From positions 1 through 23,100 of IMG/VR virus record IMGVR_UViG_2513237361_000003: DNA of 23,100 bases. One strand, 5' to 3'. The notes under the pieces were generated by a model, which made no database searches, was not told where the DNA came from, and worked only from the letters and a program-made list of their open reading frames with translations. This DNA comes from a virus. Taxonomy: Duplodnaviria; Heunggongvirae; Uroviricota; Caudoviricetes. Shown one piece after another: positions 12,244 to 18,509 of the stretch. Position 1 is the stretch's first letter. Each line of letters opens with the position of its first letter. Made by a program: the position numbers and the translations under genes.

Positions 12244-13650
12244 ATGGCTACTTGGCAAGGATCAAATGGCGGATTGTTGGCTGGTATCGGCGGCGTCAAC
12301 TCAAACGCTCCGAGCGTAAATGACATCGGCAATACGCTTCAGCTTATCAGGCAGAACAATGATATTGAGCGTTCAGGCGCTAACAATGTTGGGCTGACTG
12401 CTTTGCAAGGCCTTTCAGGTATTGCGGGGGTGTTTCAGCAGGAAAAGCAGGCTCAGCGGCAGAAAGAATTTCAGCAGGCATACGCTAATGCTTATGCGTC
12501 TGGTGATCGCGGTGCTTTGCGTCAGTTGGCCACTCAATATCCAGACCAGATTGAATCCGTTCGTAAAGGCATGGGATTCATTGATGAAGAGCAGCGTAAT
12601 TCTATCGGCACCTTAGCGGCTGGCGCACGCCTTGCGTCATCGTCTCCAGAAGCAATGCAATCATGGCTGCAAAACAACGCCAATGAGCTGGCGCGCGTCG
12701 GTGTTGACCCTAATAACGTTGCTCAGATGTATCAGCAGAACCCTTCAGGATTTGGTGAGTTTGTTGATCACCTTGGGATGGCTGCGCTTGGTCCGATTGA
12801 TTACTTCAATGTTCAGGACAAGATGGCTGGTCGTGAAATTGACCGAGGCAGGCTGGCAGAGACAATCCGCAGCAATCAGGCTGGTGAAGCACTTCAGGCG
12901 AGAGGGCAAAACCTTTCCTATCAGTCAGCAATGACTGGGCACAATATCGCAGCACAACGCTTGGCTCTGGATCAGCAAGAGTTCGGGTTTAAGATGCAGC
13001 AAGCGCAGGAAAAGGCTCAGCAGTTGATTAGCGAAGCACCTAAGCTGTCAGTAAACATGGAAAAAGGCATCGAGACGGCTGTAAACAATGCCACAGCATC
13101 ATCAAACTCAGCCAATTCCATGAGTGCGCTTGCTCAACAGTTCAGAGCAGAAAAACCAACGACCGGTTTGTTCGGTAACGCACAGAACATGTTCGCAAAA
13201 CTTACCGGAAGCGATACGACATTGCGTGATTTGCGCATTCGCCAAAATGCCCTTGTTAACAGTCAGGTTCTTAAATTCCTACCTCCCGGCCCAGCAACGG
13301 ATAAAGACGTTGAGATCGTTCGACAGGGTGCGCCAACTGACATGGATAACCCTGAGACGGTCGCAAGATGGCTTGATGCAATGGCAAACCTTGAGCGACG
13401 AAACGCGCAGTTTAATGAGTTTAAAGCTGAGTGGATGAGCGCGAATGGCAACCCTGGACAATCGCGTAATGGCGGTCAGATATTGGGGTTGGATGTTAAA
13501 AAAGGTGAATCATTGGGGAGTGCCGTTAAGCGGTATATGTCAATGAATACTGACGCAGCGCCAGCACAAGATTCGACACCTTCAGGAGAACCACGGAATC
13601 AGGTTGGATCATATACCTCAAAATCAGGCATTCAATTTACGGTGGAATGA
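12244..13650 (+). CDS. ejection protein, P22 gp20-like
   Basis: 468 aa in the gp20 position. Its stop overlaps the next gene start. Confidence 0.8.
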
Positions 13651-15494
13651 TGAAAGTAACTGCAAACGGTAAGACATTTACCTTTCCTGATGGTACGAGC
13701 ACCGAAGATATTGGCACCGCCATTGATGAGTATTTTGCTGGTCAGGCTGTTCAGCAACAAACAGTTAATCAGGCCAATAATGCACCAACACGGGAAGAAC
13801 CATCATTGATGCAACAAGCTGGCGATTGGCTCACTGGTGGTCAAAGTGCAGGGCAAATTGCAGAACAGGCTGGTCGTGGTCTGGTAAACATACCATTTGA
13901 CGTATTGCAGGGCGGCGCAAGTCTGATTAATGCAATCAGTCAGGGGCTTGGTGGACCCAAGGTTTTGGATGATGTTTATCGTCCAGTAGACAGACCGACA
14001 GACCCCTACGCGCAATCCGGTGAAACAATTGGTGGGTATTTAGTTCCAGGAGTTGGAACGGCAGGAAGCATGGCTATTGGATCACTGGCAGAGGCCGCAA
14101 ATCAGAAAGGCGATTTCGCACAAAATGCAGCTAAAAATGCCGGAGTTAACCTTGCCGCTCAGGGTGTTCTTTCCGCAGCAGCAAAGGGAATAGGGCGTGG
14201 AATAACGGCTATAAAAGGTGATATTGCGCCAGAAGTGGCGAAGAAAATTGCCACATCAGAATCGATGGGCGTGACACCAATGACATCTGATGTTATCCCG
14301 CCGAAAAATGCTTTCACTCGCGGCCTAACTCAGGATGCCGAGGGGGCTTTGCTCGGGACAGGCTCAAAGCGAGCGGAGCAATATGCAACGCGTAGTAAGC
14401 TGGTAAGTAATTATTTTGACCGTTTTGGTGAGTACAACCCTGATGATGTGGTGAAATCTCTTACCACCACGTTAAGGGGGCGGAAGGATGCCGCTGGCGC
14501 TGTTATCAATGACGTCACCAATAAAATGGGTAATGCCGCAGTTGATACCACAAATACCATGAATGCTCTGAATACAGCGATCGCAAGACAGGAACGGCTT
14601 GGGACGTCTGCCAATCAAAGCCTGCTTACATCCTTGCGTAACCTACGTGAAGAATTAGCAAACCCTGCAACTGATTTGGATGTTACGTTTGATCTCTTGC
14701 GTCAGCACAGAACAGCATTTAGATCTAATGTTCAGGGAGATGCTATGGTCTTCCCCAACCAGGCAAAAGCAGCTACCAATATGGTAGAGAATGCAATGTC
14801 AAAAGACCTTCGTAACGCAGTTGCTAAAAACCTCGGTGCATCAGACGCAGCAAAATACCTTAAAGCAAATTCCGATTATGCAAACGTTTATAATAAGGTG
14901 CTTAATAAAAACATTGCCAACAAGCTCAACAAGGCAAGCAGTGAAGCCAGTCCTGAACTTATAAATACCGTTGTATTAAGCAGAAAACCATCTGACGTGA
15001 AACGAATCTGGAGCGCACTGGATGATAAGGGGAAAGATGCTATGCGTGCAGCTTACGTCAGCAAAATAGCGGAAAAGGCCGGGGACTCTCCAGCCAAGTT
15101 CATCACTGAAGTTAATAAGCTGAAATCTCAGTCAGGCGGTGAAATTTACAACACTATTTTTTCTGGAAAGCACATGAAAGAGCTTGATGCTCTTCATGAA
15201 GTTCTACAGCAAACAGCAAGGTCAGACACCGCAAATGTAGTAACTCAGACTGGGCAATCGCAAGCCAACAGGATAAGGACGATTGGCGCAACTGCGACCC
15301 TTGGCGTATCAATGGGGCTTGAGGCTGGTTTTGGTGCAATGATGCGCTTGTATGAGTCCAAAGCAGCAAGGAATGCTCTCTTACGTCTGGCAAACACTAA
15401 AACTGGAACGCCAGCTTATGAAAGAGCGCTAAATAATGCTGCAAATGCGATACGCCCTATACTTTCAAGCCAAATTACAGCAGAACAGCAATAA
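13647..15494 (+). CDS. ejection protein, P22 gp16-like
   Basis: 615 aa in the gp16 position, the last gene of the rightward virion block. Confidence 0.8.
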
Positions 15495-15508
15495 AAGATA
15501 AGATATAA

Positions 15509-15994
15509 CTACCTGATATTACTGCTACTGTTGCATGTTACCGTGTTTCCAAATCCTGAATTGCAGTTTGTATATGTGTCAACGCGTGTTGGGTAAGGTT
15601 GAGTTATAACAGGCTGGCGCGCTTTTTGCTCGATCGCTTGCATTGTGTTTACAGCCTGATAATTCAATAAAGCCTGCTGGAATGCTTGGCTTTGTGCTAT
15701 TTGTTGGGCTTGTTCTTGGCTTTGTAATTGAACATAAAGATTCTGAAGCTCAAGTCTTGCCTGTGCGTCACTTATCTTGCCTTCATCGACACCTTGCCCG
15801 AGCATCTTTGCAGCAAGGACATACAGCTTAGGTGTTGGTGCTGATGCCATGCGTGAGTCGTTCTTCACACTGGCATCAAGGCAATTAGCCATATCGCTAA
15901 GCTTTTGATAGCGTTGTTCGCAACTTGCTTGATAGTCACTTACTTTTGCGCATCCAACCAGCAGAAGCGGGATAATTAACAGTGATTTTTTCAT
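15509..15994 (-). CDS. outer-membrane lipoprotein moron, candidate superinfection-exclusion or lysogenic-conversion protein
   Basis: AAGGAG 9 nt upstream of an ATG giving MKKSLLIIPLLLVGC. Lipobox LVGC with Ala at +2 (outer-membrane sorting rule). Mature part is Gln-rich and helical with several Cys. Convergent with gp16, occupying the slot P22 uses for sieA. Confidence 0.7.
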   Translation of the reverse strand: MKKSLLIIPLLLVGCAKVSDYQASCEQRYQKLSDMANCLDASVKNDSRMASAPTPKLYVLAAKMLGQGVDEGKISDAQARLELQNLYVQLQSQEQAQQIAQSQAFQQALLNYQAVNTMQAIEQKARQPVITQPYPTRVDTYTNCNSGFGNTVTCNSSSNIR

Positions 15995-16064
15995 ATGGTT
16001 AACTCTCCTTAGTTTTTCACAGGATATCATGAAGGCAATGCCATTTTAGCCGGAAACTAGATTT

Positions 16065-16331
16065 CTATGTTTCCTTTTTATTATTGCTATACATGGTCTT
16101 AAGCGTATCAAAGACAATTTTCTTAACCATATCAGATTGTTGTTCTGCCATACGCTCTGCATCGTCAATGTAAACTGATGCAGAGCTTTGTTTAGCCAAT
16201 GATTCTTCAATCGCTGCAATTATCTCTGAGTTCAGCGACCTGTTATTCATCTTCGCACGCTGCTTAATTTTCGCGTGGAGTTCATGCGGAAGTCTCAAGT
16301 GAAACTGCGCCTCGTCGTATTTGCTGTACAT
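16065..16331 (-). CDS. mnt: Mnt-like ribbon-helix-helix repressor (Arc/MetJ family)
   Basis: C-terminal DAERMAEQQSDMVKKIVFDTLKTMY and N-terminal FHLRLPHELHAKIKQRAKMNNRSLNSEI align with P22 Mnt as recalled. Start placed at the Met of MYSKY (88 aa); an upstream ATG at 16364 is possible. Confidence 0.8.
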   Translation of the reverse strand: MYSKYDEAQFHLRLPHELHAKIKQRAKMNNRSLNSEIIAAIEESLAKQSSASVYIDDAERMAEQQSDMVKKIVFDTLKTMYSNNKKET

Positions 16332-16392
16332 CCTTGATGCCTCACCAGTTGGGTGGAATGGCATCGTAACCTACTGGATAAACACTCAATAG

Positions 16393-16405
16393 TACCATTT
16401 TGGTA
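16393..16405. promoter_or_regulatory. candidate operator: inverted repeat TACCA-TTT-TGGTA in the mnt/tailspike divergent region
   Basis: Perfect 5-bp inverted repeat with a 3-bp spacer, in the 99-bp gap between the mnt start and the tailspike start. The P22 Omnt sequence itself is not present. Confidence 0.25.
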
Positions 16406-16463
16406 TGTAATGAATCTCAATCATATCCACGCTGAGTCTATTACTTGCATTTGGAGCCCTTAA

Positions 16464-18509
16464 ATGTCAGAGACGTCACAGTCAATTCTTGTAAATATGC
16501 CAATGAGTCTGTACACAGCATCGCGTTCATTCAAAGCTATTTCAAATGGTAAAATATATGTAGGTATTCCTGACACAGACCCTGTATATCCTGAAAATCA
16601 GGTTCCAGTATATATCGTTAATGAGAGTGGAAATAAGATACAGATTCCACAACCGATTGTTATAAACTCCGGTGGTCATCCTGTTTATAATGGTCAAATA
16701 ATAAATAAAATAATTACAGATGAACAATATAGTCTTGCTGTTTACGACTCTTATGGTTCTCAGGAATATTATTTTGACAATGTGGTAAGGTATGATCCTG
16801 AAGCATTAATGCAATTATTGGCTGGCAAGGAAGGTTATTCGTACATAGGGGAGTTGCAATCAGCTGCTGACTTCTTTGGTCTTGTTAAAAACGACGGCGC
16901 TCGTGTAAAACTACGTAGTTGGTATGCTGGTTGGAGTGTAACTACATATGGAAAGCCAAAAGGTGGTGGTGAGTTTATCTTCCAGGCTAATGTTCCGAAA
17001 GCTAAGCATGACGGCTGCATATACTTCAGCCCGACCGTGCCTTACAGCACAAATCTTTCATCATATGTTACTGGTCAGGGTGAAACTGATCCTACCGGGA
17101 GTGGCGTGTGGGTGAGAGATATTGGTGATGCCACACATATTCATACTGATTGGGCTGGTATTGGAGATGGATCAACATCCACATCTTCATCCGCGCATAG
17201 TGATGCATTACAAAATGTCTTCAATGCAGCGGCAGCCTTAGGTAAACATGTTCAGCTTGGGTATGGGTTTATCCACTTAGAAAAAGCTGTGAGTATGCCA
17301 GCTTTTTTTGACAATACGTCAGCCATGCCGCGGATTGAAGGATACGGCATAAACAGCAGTTACTTTATATGCACCCCGTTGGGTACTGATACATATAACA
17401 TCACGTGCATGTTGGATAGTTTTACCCAAACTTGGGGTATGAAAGACTTCCAGATTCGAGAGAAAGGCCTTACCAAAACTGGCTATTTAATGAAGTTGGG
17501 CCGCCTGACAGGGGCAGTAATTGAGCGTGTCAAATGGGCGGGGGGATACCAACAACTTCTTGCGCAAAGCGTACTGTCATGCACATGGATTGAGCCATGC
17601 TGGTTTAGTGGCTATCGTGGGGCGAAGTTTGAGGCAGGGGGAACGGTTGGTTCTGGTTATGCCAACCCTAACGCTAACAGATTCATTCGCCCACAGATTC
17701 TTACTATGGAAAACCAGGGTTTATGGATAGTTAACGCTACACAATTCCAAATTGATGGCGGTAGCATTGAAGGGTGTGGTTCTCCGGGGGACACTACATT
17801 CCGTGGGTTCTACGTGCAGGGTGGAGGTTCTGACGGCACCGTCGGGTTAGTAGTAGATGGGTTGTATGTGGAAACTGTTAGTGGATACCCGTTCTACATA
17901 ACCCATAGCAACAACCGCTCTATCAAGCATGTTATTTCAAATAGTAACTTCAACAATAACGATACGCAGTATCCTGTTAGCCAAGTAATAGTTCTTGGTG
18001 GTAATTATAGTTACCCGTCAGGGGTAACTATGACTCTGGAGATGCGTGGTAATACCTGCCTTGGGGTTGGCTATACGGCAAGCGCATCGAGGCCAGATGT
18101 TAGTATAAGTGGATATTCCGCCAATGAGCAGGCTATTTTTATCGATTATGATAACTTATGGATCCCATCACAATCACCGGTTGTGGATGCTACTGTTAAA
18201 TGGAAAAGCTCTCCTGACTTCGCTTTTGGTGTGAGCGTTGTTGGTGCGACTGGAGCAATGGGAAACAGGAGAAATATACTCAGTGTTACAAGGGGAGCGA
18301 CTGGGGTTTATACAGTAAATGCAAATCATGATATAGCAAACGTGGCTGTAGAAATAACTACTGTAGGGGTACCAGGATACGGAATAATAGGTGGTTATCC
18401 TACCGCAAACTCATTCGTTGTAAGGATGTACAATACTGCAGGCGCTCCCACTGACATAGATTTCATAGCATTAGGAAAAGACTATAGAGCAAGATTTAAC
18501 GCTACATAA
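16464..18509 (+). CDS. tailspike protein: P22-type N-terminal head-binding domain plus a distinct receptor-binding domain
   Basis: GGAG 8 nt before the ATG. Residues about 15-110 (SRSFKA..NGKIYVG..DTDPV.P.NQ.PVY..NE.G...) match the conserved head-binding domain of P22, Sf6 and HK620 tailspikes. The remaining ~570 aa are Gly/Asn/Ser/Thr-rich like a beta-helix but not recognisably P22's, and the DNA is more AT-rich. Confidence 0.9.
   Translation: MSETSQSILVNMPMSLYTASRSFKAISNGKIYVGIPDTDPVYPENQVPVYIVNESGNKIQIPQPIVINSGGHPVYNGQIINKIITDEQYSLAVYDSYGSQEYYFDNVVRYDPEALMQLLAGKEGYSYIGELQSAADFFGLVKNDGARVKLRSWYAGWSVTTYGKPKGGGEFIFQANVPKAKHDGCIYFSPTVPYSTNLSSYVTGQGETDPTGSGVWVRDIGDATHIHTDWAGIGDGSTSTSSSAHSDALQNVFNAAAALGKHVQLGYGFIHLEKAVSMPAFFDNTSAMPRIEGYGINSSYFICTPLGTDTYNITCMLDSFTQTWGMKDFQIREKGLTKTGYLMKLGRLTGAVIERVKWAGGYQQLLAQSVLSCTWIEPCWFSGYRGAKFEAGGTVGSGYANPNANRFIRPQILTMENQGLWIVNATQFQIDGGSIEGCGSPGDTTFRGFYVQGGGSDGTVGLVVDGLYVETVSGYPFYITHSNNRSIKHVISNSNFNNNDTQYPVSQVIVLGGNYSYPSGVTMTLEMRGNTCLGVGYTASASRPDVSISGYSANEQAIFIDYDNLWIPSQSPVVDATVKWKSSPDFAFGVSVVGATGAMGNRRNILSVTRGATGVYTVNANHDIANVAVEITTVGVPGYGIIGGYPTANSFVVRMYNTAGAPTDIDFIALGKDYRARFNAT

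What the first reader, a model, noticed from the sequence alone, without database searches (positions are those of the whole stretch)
16065..16463. Orphan Mnt-like repressor with no arc/ant, placed divergently from the tailspike
In P22, Mnt represses the antirepressor promoter within a mnt-arc-ant unit. Here the Mnt homolog is kept but arc and ant are absent, and only 99 bp separate it from the tailspike start. Its predicted DNA-contacting N-terminal strand differs from P22 (FHLRLP rather than FNFRMP), so the operator should differ. A perfect inverted repeat TACCA-TTT-TGGTA at 16393-16405 is a candidate. The repressor may have been repurposed to control tailspike or moron expression.
Basis: partly seen in the sequence, partly recalled or inferred. 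Interest (0 to 1): 0.55.

Follow-up and report, generated by a model that had tools for sequence, protein, structure and literature searches.

The report
Stand-alone Mnt repressor and its operator
A P22-like prophage keeps a working-looking Mnt repressor and its matching DNA binding site although the antirepressor it normally controls is gone; this layout is common and already described, and nothing suggests that it switches the neighbouring tailspike gene.

Summary
An 88-aa Mnt homolog (16065-16331, minus strand) lies divergent from the tailspike gene. The window has no arc, ant or sar.

The palindrome TACCA-TTT-TGGTA (16393-16405) is the positional homolog of the P22 Mnt operator. It has the same CTCAATAG flank, lies 1 bp from the -35 of the mnt promoter, and is centred 68 bp from the mnt ATG (66 bp in P22).

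Across about 270 related loci, three recognition-strand classes pair almost perfectly with three operator types:
- H-N-R (P22) with GGTCCAC-N-GTGGACC
- Q-N-R (L/ST160) with AGACCAC-N-GTGGTCT
- Q-H-R (this window) with TACC-N5-GGTA

The window's class was never found with arc/ant under its operator. It is always next to the tailspike gene, from Escherichia to Klebsiella, Rahnella and Serratia. It is under purifying selection (pN/pS 0.15-0.20).

No tailspike-directed promoter exists in the spacer; Pant and the Arc operator are gone. The likeliest reading is a self-regulating, prophage-expressed Mnt cassette that here probably also transcribes the downstream lipoprotein gene. Why it is kept remains open.

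The layout is documented for ST64T, ST104 and phage L, and occurs in about 400 of 5426 complete E. coli genomes. Low interest.

The parts
16065..16331 (-). mnt homolog, 88 aa (stop codon 16065-16067). It has an N-terminal ribbon-helix-helix domain with recognition strand Q-F-H-L-R, and a C-terminal Mnt tetramerisation helix.
   Evidence: Pfam Arc and Repressor_Mnt. PDB 1MNT and 1QEY. Alignment with P22, epsilon34, CUS-3, ST160, VSe13, Gally and Sf101. pN/pS 0.15-0.20.
16391..16407 (.). Predicted 17-bp Mnt operator AGTACCATTTTGGTATG. The perfect core TACCA-TTT-TGGTA is at 16393-16405, centred at 16399.
   Evidence: It shares the flank CTCAATAG...TGTAaTG with P22 Omnt. The TACC-N5-GGTA arms are conserved from Escherichia to Klebsiella, Rahnella, Serratia and Buttiauxella while the flanks diverge. 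The Q-H-R strand pairs with this operator type in 137 of 138 loci.
16363..16389 (-). Predicted Pmnt: -35 TTGAGT (16389-16384), 15-bp spacer, -10 TACGAT (16368-16363).
   Evidence: Positional homolog of P22 Pmnt (TTGAGA-17-TATCAT) and of phage L and Gally promoters. PWM score is 7.2 here against 13.1 for P22 Pmnt. The short spacer is shared with Sf101-type relatives; VSe13-type relatives have 17 bp.
16336..16365 (-). Inverted repeat GATGCC-N18-GGCATC. It overlaps the -10 on one side and the Shine-Dalgarno GAGG (16343-16340) on the other.
   Evidence: Conserved in the Q-N-R and Q-H-R classes and in Buttiauxella. The outer stem is essentially invariant, with only single-sided wobble or mismatch changes and no compensatory pairs. 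The fold z-score is only -1.05. Function unknown.
16412..16463 (+). Tailspike leader, also called the boundary sequence. It carries the tailspike ribosome binding site. A mosaic junction lies at 16411/16412.
   Evidence: Homology with most of the 407 matching E. coli records stops at 16411. The segment is a diverged copy of the roughly 45 bp that precede gene 9 in P22 and phage L.
16464..18509 (+). Tailspike gene with a P22-type head-binding domain, divergent from mnt.
   Evidence: Pfam Head_binding 5.6e-43. The allele is rare: 1 of 5426 E. coli genomes at 89% identity, and the receptor-binding part is about 80% identical to Providencia phage EPr2.
15509..15994 (-). Lipoprotein moron (161 aa; lipobox LLVGC), co-directional with mnt and 70 bp downstream of it. 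Probably co-transcribed.
   Evidence: PHROG 6067, function unknown; no Pfam or PADLOC hit. No mnt-sense terminator and only a weak promoter in the gap. It travels with the 88-aa mnt allele.
16052..16085 (+). Terminator-like element in the late-operon sense: a hairpin (GGAAAC...GTTTCC) followed by TTTTTATTATT. It overlaps the 3' end of mnt.
   Evidence: RNA fold -8.7 kcal/mol, z = -2.5. Annotated terminators occupy the same position in phage L and epsilon34.

Best explanation
This is a functional Mnt-operator pair left in the 'ant moron' of a P22-like prophage. The arc, sar, ant and Pant part of the immI region is absent.

**Proposed mechanism.**
- The Mnt tetramer binds the 17-bp operator centred at 16399.
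- That operator abuts the -35 of the leftward mnt promoter, so Mnt regulates its own prophage-expressed transcript.
- In this window the transcript most likely continues into the lipoprotein gene 70 bp downstream.
- The tailspike gene is not a promoter-level target. It is read from the late operon by antiterminated read-through.

**Shown here:** homology, operator position, strand-operator covariation, purifying selection, and the absence of a rightward promoter.

**Inferred:** DNA binding, the sign of autoregulation, and co-transcription of the lipoprotein gene.

**Unresolved:** the selective benefit that keeps the cassette.
For: **Mnt fold and tetramerisation domain.**

**Operator at the P22 Omnt position.** It shares the flanking sequence and geometry of P22 Omnt.

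**Strand and operator classes pair almost perfectly.**
- H-N-R with GGTCCAC-N-GTGGACC in 18 of 20 loci.
- Q-N-R with AGACCAC-N-GTGGTCT in 110 of 113.
- Q-H-R with TACC-N5-GGTA in 137 of 138.

**Conservation of the operator.**
- The arms are conserved across genera while the central 5 bp and the flanks vary.
- In Citrobacter, where the gene carries an early stop, the operator is also degenerate.

**Selection.**
- pN/pS is 0.15 in the allele followed by the lipoprotein gene and 0.20 in the allele with no downstream gene.
- The 121-bp spacer varies four times less than synonymous sites.

**Promoters.** The scan recovers P22 Pant (15.5) and Pmnt (13.1). In all orphan types it finds only the leftward Pmnt homolog and no rightward promoter.

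**Downstream genes.** Relatives carry varied co-directional genes 0-10 bp after mnt: proteins of 153 aa and 106 aa, and a ClpP-like protein.
Against: - The window's Pmnt is weak by consensus: a 15-bp spacer and a score of 7.2, near the shuffle median.
- About half of the close relatives (Sf101 type) have no gene downstream of mnt, yet are equally constrained. Cargo expression therefore cannot be the general reason for retention.
- A loop that regulates only itself has no selectable output, so some function is still missing.
- Within E. coli the operator is no more conserved than the rest of the spacer. One variant (CC to CA) occurs in 6 of the 80 IMG/VR loci and also in E. coli strain LR-28.
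- No binding or transcript data exist.
Confidence: 0.6

Rival explanations
1. Trans-acting immunity. The prophage keeps Mnt to silence the antirepressor promoter of superinfecting relatives that carry the same operator. This would protect its main repressor from Ant without the prophage carrying ant itself.
For: This is what Mnt does in P22 lysogens (established knowledge; PMC11016777). For the Q-N-R class, which is mostly orphan, complete mnt-arc-ant regions with the identical AGACCAC-N-GTGGTCT operator exist (L325, L378, L389). It would explain equal purifying selection with and without downstream cargo.
Against: - No arc/ant under a TACC-N5-GGTA operator turned up among the sampled loci with a Q-H-R Mnt (138 in the tally, some contigs fetched twice), 120 operator-pattern hits, or five divergent genera.
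- The one class member that coexists with ant (L261) has ant under separate Mnt/Arc-like genes.
Confidence: 0.2
2. Tailspike dosage control. Mnt bound 57-65 bp upstream of the tailspike start acts as a roadblock, or convergent Pmnt transcription interferes with late transcripts. Either would tune how much late read-through reaches the tailspike gene.
For: Both orphan classes always sit immediately upstream of the tailspike gene, even when a separate ant module is present to the left (L261). Villafane et al. 2008 suggested the ant moron and its repressors may affect late read-through into the tailspike gene. A late-sense terminator-like hairpin lies at 16052-16085.
Against: - There is no rightward promoter to repress.
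- Homing-endonuclease insertions move the operator about 600 bp from the tailspike gene.
- Phages without mnt make tailspikes.
- Adjacency is explained by the fixed position of the moron and by linkage to the conserved head-binding domain.
Confidence: 0.12
3. Decaying remnant. The gene and palindrome are neutral leftovers of a deleted immI region.
For: Phage L authors raised this possibility (PMC8022706). Occasional broken copies exist: L083 has a stop at codon 32, and Citrobacter L177 has an early stop.
Against: pN/pS is 0.15-0.20. Intact copies with conserved operator arms occur in several genera at only 64-78% protein identity. Repressor and operator have co-diverged into distinct classes.
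Confidence: 0.06
4. Toxin-antitoxin-like operon. The ribbon-helix-helix protein is an autoregulating antitoxin for the gene that follows it.
For: Weak Pfam HicB and FitA-like hits. Some relatives have a gene 0-10 bp downstream.
Against: - Those hits reflect the shared fold, and the C-terminus is the Mnt tetramerisation helix.
- The downstream gene here encodes a secreted lipoprotein.
- Downstream genes are unrelated to one another, and many relatives have none.
- There is no PADLOC hit.
Confidence: 0.02

Closest known systems
P22 Mnt repressor and its operator Omnt (immI region: mnt-arc-sar-ant)
   Same: Same fold and tetramerisation domain (47% identity). Same genome position between gene 16 and the tailspike gene. 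The operator is at the same place relative to the mnt promoter and start codon, with a shared flanking sequence.
   Different: - Arc, sar, ant, Pant and the Arc operator are all absent.
- The recognition strand is Q-F-H-L-R rather than H-F-N-F-R.
- The operator is TACC-N5-GGTA rather than GGTCCAC-N-GTGGACC.
- The N-terminus is 3 residues longer.
- The promoter spacer is 15 bp rather than 17 bp.
Orphan mnt of Salmonella phages L, ST64T, ST104, ST160, SE1 and of Escherichia phage Gally
   Same: A lone mnt divergent from the tailspike gene, with a palindromic operator abutting the mnt -35. There is no Pant. This was described in PMC2629481 and PMC8022706 with function left open.
   Different: Those phages have a different specificity class: Q-F-N-L-R with AGACCAC-N-GTGGTCT. 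That specificity also occurs in complete immI regions, which was not seen for the window's class.
Sf101, IME10 and the E. coli O26:H11 11368 prophage
   Same: Same Mnt class (91-98% identity), same operator type and same position. The O26 prophage also has the lipoprotein gene.
   Different: The tailspike allele and the 52 bp upstream of it differ. Sf101 and IME10 lack the lipoprotein gene. Their operator is imperfect at the innermost pair (TACCG...TGGTA).
P22 Arc repressor
   Same: The same ribbon-helix-helix DNA-binding domain. The Arc strand Q-F-N-L-R equals that of the L/ST160 Mnt class.
   Different: Arc lacks the Mnt C-terminal tetramerisation helix and binds a 21-bp operator inside Pant.

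Membership tests
Mnt repressor family | N-terminal ribbon-helix-helix (Arc-like) DNA-binding domain | tested here: met
   Pfam PF03869 1.1e-14. PDB 1MNT 5.5e-19, aligned over residues 6-78.
Mnt repressor family | C-terminal helix that makes the tetramer | tested here: met
   Pfam PF11423 1.2e-12. PDB 1QEY 1.1e-6 over residues 56-83.
Mnt repressor family | Symmetric operator of about 17 bp just upstream of the mnt promoter -35 | tested here: met
   Site 16391-16407, 1 bp from TTGAGT. It is homologous in position and flanks to P22 Omnt and conserved across genera.
Mnt repressor family | Specific binding to that operator and an effect on transcription | not testable with these tools
   Only covariation of strand and operator classes is available.
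P22 immI immunity region | Antirepressor gene ant with its promoter Pant under the Mnt operator | tested here: not met
   No Ant hit in the window. The best rightward promoter score is 4.4, against 15.5 for Pant.
P22 immI immunity region | Arc repressor gene and Arc operator | tested here: not met
   No Arc hit in the window. The P22 Arc operator sequence has no counterpart in the alignment.
P22 immI immunity region | sar antisense RNA | tested here: not met
   Rfam finds no sar in 15000-17000. The P22 control scores 97.8 bits.
'ant moron' of P22-like phages (Villafane et al. 2008) | A variable gene set between the gene 16 homolog and the tailspike gene, inside the late operon, mostly on the opposite strand | tested here: met
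   The gp16-like gene ends at 15494. The lipoprotein gene and mnt are on the minus strand. The tailspike gene starts at 16464.
Type II toxin-antitoxin (ribbon-helix-helix antitoxin) | Adjacent toxin gene and a toxin-binding C-terminus | tested here: not met
   The downstream gene encodes a lipoprotein of unknown function. The C-terminus is the Mnt tetramerisation helix.

The most novel reading that the evidence does not exclude
Lone Mnt-operator pairs are an independent, selected module of P22-like prophages. They have diversified into at least two of their own specificity classes. They serve either as immunity against foreign antirepressors without the cost of carrying one, or as a brake on late transcription entering the tailspike gene.
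Probability: 0.2. Interest if true: 0.5.

Novelty: new member of a known kind. Interest (0 to 1): 0.25.

Why it matters
Authors of the epsilon34 and phage L genome papers noted lone mnt genes and left open whether they are remnants or have a new role. The comparison here shows three things:
- The lone genes are under purifying selection.
- They keep operators that co-vary with their recognition strand.
- The window's class has not been found with an antirepressor.

That argues against simple decay. It also defines a clean test system: an 88-aa protein, a 17-bp site and one promoter. The result is of moderate use to phage biologists and to people who use Arc/Mnt proteins as specificity models. 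It does not change how tailspike expression is understood.

Tried and rejected
- **Built-in scans.** The repeat finder and the built-in promoter/terminator scan found nothing in the spacer. I replaced the promoter scan with a weighted scan validated on P22.
- **Second palindrome.** A perfect palindrome with the same core, CTACCAATATGGTAG, lies at 14773-14787 inside the gp16-like gene. It looked like a second operator. The same gp16 allele carries it next to all three Mnt classes, so it is not linked to this Mnt.
- **Operator scans outside mnt loci.** Scanning IMG/VR for the class operator gave 40 mnt-adjacent hits and 80 unrelated ones. The unrelated set included a promoter repeat present twice, 515 bp apart, in GC-rich phages. 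None was next to arc or ant.
- **Whole Sf101 genome.** It has only the one operator and no annotated Ant.
- **mnt leader inverted repeat.** It shows no compensatory changes in the outer stem and has an unremarkable folding energy.
- **Defence and family libraries.** PADLOC, Pfam and PHROGs give no function for the lipoprotein.
- **The VSe13 'antirepressor'.** This 96-aa ORF has no Pfam support.
- **The 99-aa reading of the gene.** Rejected because the extra ATG sits just 3' of, and overlaps, the conserved -10.

Full report
**1. What is in the window**

The window is the late region of a P22-like (Lederbergvirus) prophage. It runs from Rz and the terminase genes, through the ejection-protein genes, to the tailspike gene, a gtrA/gtrB/membrane-protein cluster and an integrase gene.

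Between the gp16-like gene (13647-15494, +) and the tailspike gene (16464-18509, +; Pfam Head_binding 5.6e-43) lie two minus-strand genes:
- a lipoprotein gene at 15509-15994;
- the Mnt homolog.

The Mnt ORF hits Pfam Arc (1e-14) and Repressor_Mnt (1e-12). It matches the solved Mnt structures 1MNT and 1QEY and is 47% identical to P22 Mnt.

**2. Gene start and spacer length**

The longest ORF (99 aa) starts at 16364. The start at 16331 (88 aa, MYSKYDEAQFHLRLP...) is the likely real one.
- It has a GAGG Shine-Dalgarno 8 nt upstream.
- RefSeq annotates this start in relatives.
- The upstream ATG sits just 3' of, and overlaps, the conserved -10 element (TACGAT-G). P22 has TATCAT-G and phage L has TATGAT-G at the same position, and there the frame is closed.

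The spacer to the tailspike ATG is therefore 132 bp, not 99.

**3. Absence of partner genes**

P22 Arc and Ant find nothing in the 23.1 kb window. Rfam finds no sar here, while the P22 control finds sar at 97.8 bits. The complete genome of Sf101, which carries the same Mnt class, has no annotated antirepressor and only one operator-like site.

**4. The palindrome is the Mnt operator homolog**

P22 reads CTCAATAG-GTCCA-CGG-TGGAC-CTGTATTG across its annotated Mnt operator. The window reads CTCAATAG-TACCA-TTT-TGGTA-TGTAATG at 16385-16412.

In both cases the 17-bp site ends 1 bp from the -35 of the leftward mnt promoter: TTGAGA in P22 and TTGAGT at 16389-16384 here. The site is centred 66 bp (P22) or 68 bp (window) from the mnt ATG.

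By itself, a 5+3+5 palindrome in 132 bp is not exceptional. The evidence is comparative.

**5. Covariation of recognition strand and operator**

I collected about 270 loci with Mnt homologs from IMG/VR, GTDB genomes, phage records and public assemblies. Some contigs were fetched twice. The recognition strand corresponds to Arc residues Gln9, Asn11 and Arg13 and to Mnt His6, Asn8 and Arg10. That mapping rests on established knowledge of the Arc-operator structure and on the Knight and Sauer swap experiments cited.

| Strand class | Examples | Operator type | Loci matching |
|---|---|---|---|
| H-N-R | P22, epsilon34 | GGTCCAC-N-GTGGACC | 18 of 20 |
| Q-N-R | L, ST64T, ST160, SE1, Gally | AGACCAC-N-GTGGTCT | 110 of 113 |
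| Q-H-R | this window, Sf101, IME10, O26 prophage, VSe13 | TACC-N5-GGTA | 137 of 138 |

A fourth pairing, Q-F-N-F-R with ATATCAC-C-GTGATAT, appears in a Phlomobacter contig.

Within the window's class, the TACC/GGTA arms and the adjoining TATTG are the best-conserved columns of the spacer. This holds across Escherichia, Klebsiella, Rahnella, Serratia and Buttiauxella, while the central 5 bp and the tailspike-side flank vary. In a Citrobacter copy with an early stop codon, the operator is also degenerate.

**6. Genomic context by class**

- All 20 H-N-R loci have arc and ant.
- Q-N-R loci are next to the tailspike gene in 112 of 113 cases.
- Q-H-R loci are next to the tailspike gene in 132 of 138 cases. 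Of the other six, five loci held neither a tailspike nor an arc/ant match. The sixth is L261.
- In 8 of 80 close relatives and in Rahnella, an HNH/AP2 homing-endonuclease gene lies between the operator and the tailspike gene.

Two exceptions are informative:
- Three metagenomic contigs carry a complete mnt-arc-ant region with the Q-N-R strand and the identical AGACCAC-N-GTGGTCT operator.
- Contig L261 has the Q-H-R mnt and operator next to the tailspike gene. It also has a separate CUS-3-like ant module, with its own Mnt-like and Arc-like genes, to the left and convergent with mnt.

No ant under a TACC-N5-GGTA operator was found.

**7. Selection**

Among 60 distinct sequences of the class, 43 distinct synonymous and 29 non-synonymous changes give pN/pS 0.165. 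Pairwise values against the window are 0.0-0.27.

Split by allele, the ratio is 0.15 for the 88-aa allele that precedes the lipoprotein gene and 0.20 for the 86-aa allele with nothing downstream. The 121-bp spacer has 0.16 distinct changes per site, against 0.65 at synonymous sites. One of 82 copies has a premature stop. This is not a decaying remnant.

**8. Promoters**

A weighted -35/-10 scan recovers P22 Pant (15.5) and Pmnt (13.1).

In the window, Sf101, VSe13, phage L and Gally, the best tailspike-directed score is 3.9-5.7. That is below the median best score of shuffled sequence, which is 6.5.

The leftward Pmnt homolog scores 7.2 (window and Sf101, 15-bp spacer), 8.0 (VSe13), 9.3 (L) and 10.5 (Gally).

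The positions that hold the Pant -35 and the Arc operator in P22 have no counterpart here. The tailspike gene therefore depends on late-operon read-through, as in P22. A hairpin plus T-run in the late sense at 16052-16085 sits where phage L and epsilon34 have annotated terminators.

**9. Downstream cargo**

In the window, the lipoprotein gene follows mnt by 70 bp on the same strand. There is no mnt-sense terminator, and the gap holds only a weak promoter (score 6.9).

Relatives carry unrelated co-directional genes 0-10 bp after mnt: 153 aa in K. aerogenes, 106 aa in Rahnella, and a ClpP-like protein that shares its start base with the mnt stop. Others carry nothing.

Cargo expression from Pmnt is therefore likely here. 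It cannot explain retention in general.

**10. Mosaic structure**

In most of the 407 matching E. coli records, homology with the window stops at 16411, just right of the operator. The 52 bp from 16412 to the tailspike ATG are a diverged copy of the boundary sequence that precedes gene 9 in P22 and phage L. The tailspike allele itself is rare.

**11. What is already known**

Villafane et al. 2008 named this region the 'ant moron'. They reported that ST64T, ST104 and Para1 carry only mnt plus a gene of unknown function, and they speculated that Mnt and Arc might affect late read-through into the tailspike gene (PMC2629481).

Zaworski et al. [quoted passage not shown] The same layout is in Sf101, IME10, ST160 and Gally. 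Homologous DNA is present in 406 of 5426 complete E. coli genomes, and the three I opened have this layout.

**12. Verdict**

The idea of a repurposed tailspike regulator is not supported at the promoter level.

The cassette is a new specificity member of a known, published kind of arrangement. The open question is why a lone repressor-operator pair is maintained. The candidate answers are cargo expression, immunity in trans, and modulation of late read-through.

Noticed in passing
window 14773-14787: Perfect 6+3+6 palindrome CTACCAATATGGTAG with the same TACCA-N3-TGGTA core as the operator, inside the gp16-like gene. About 0.02 such sites are expected in 23 kb. The same gp16 allele carries it next to all three Mnt classes, so it is probably chance.
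   Followed up: yes
window 16336-16365: Inverted repeat GATGCC-N18-GGCATC spanning the mnt -10 and the Shine-Dalgarno. It is conserved in the Q-N-R and Q-H-R classes. An inner stem looks compensatory by eye (CACC/GGTG, CACTT/AAGTG, GTCC/GGAC). No formal covariation was found and the folding energy is ordinary.
   Followed up: partly
L022 2830-3369; L067 2827-3369; L447 3341-3850: An HNH plus AP2-domain homing-endonuclease gene (169-180 aa) is inserted between the Mnt operator and the tailspike gene in 8 of 80 close relatives and in Rahnella. It has the same orientation as mnt.
   Followed up: partly
window 15509-15994: A 161-aa lipoprotein (PHROG 6067, no known function, no defence-system hit) occupies the place of P22 sieA. 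It is linked to the 88-aa mnt allele in E. coli and is also present in VSe13 and Gally.
   Followed up: partly
window 16052-16085: A hairpin followed by TTTTTATTATT on the late-operon strand overlaps the mnt stop codon. It resembles the terminators annotated at the same place in phage L and epsilon34.
   Followed up: partly
window 16412-18509: The tailspike allele is rare and mosaic. Only 1 of 5426 complete E. coli genomes matches, at 89% identity. The receptor-binding part is about 80% identical to Providencia phage EPr2. The last 550 bp or so are 95% identical to a segment of Shigella phage SfIV. The head-binding domain is only about 52% identical to P22, against 70-76% in most relatives.
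   Followed up: partly
L261 7300-10420: One IMG/VR phage has both the tailspike-adjacent Q-H-R mnt and a separate ant module. That module has two Mnt-like genes, an Arc-like gene, an ant 85% identical to P22 ant, and a further 270-aa ORF. It is convergent with mnt.
   Followed up: partly
L378 2340-3640; L389; L325: Complete mnt-arc-ant regions whose Mnt has the Q-F-N-L-R strand and whose operator is identical to that of the orphan L/ST160 class.
   Followed up: partly
L219 2522 and 3037; also L212, L257, L273, L310: In unrelated GC-rich phage contigs, the sequence CATACCGAAACGGTAC occurs twice, 515 bp apart, within a repeated leader upstream of small ORFs. It has no Mnt link.
   Followed up: partly
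window 18546-21134: An O-antigen modification cluster lies on the minus strand: a 437-aa membrane protein with weak DUF2142/GT87 hits, a GT2 glycosyltransferase and a GtrA-like protein. It is followed by an integrase gene that starts at 21928.
   Followed up: no
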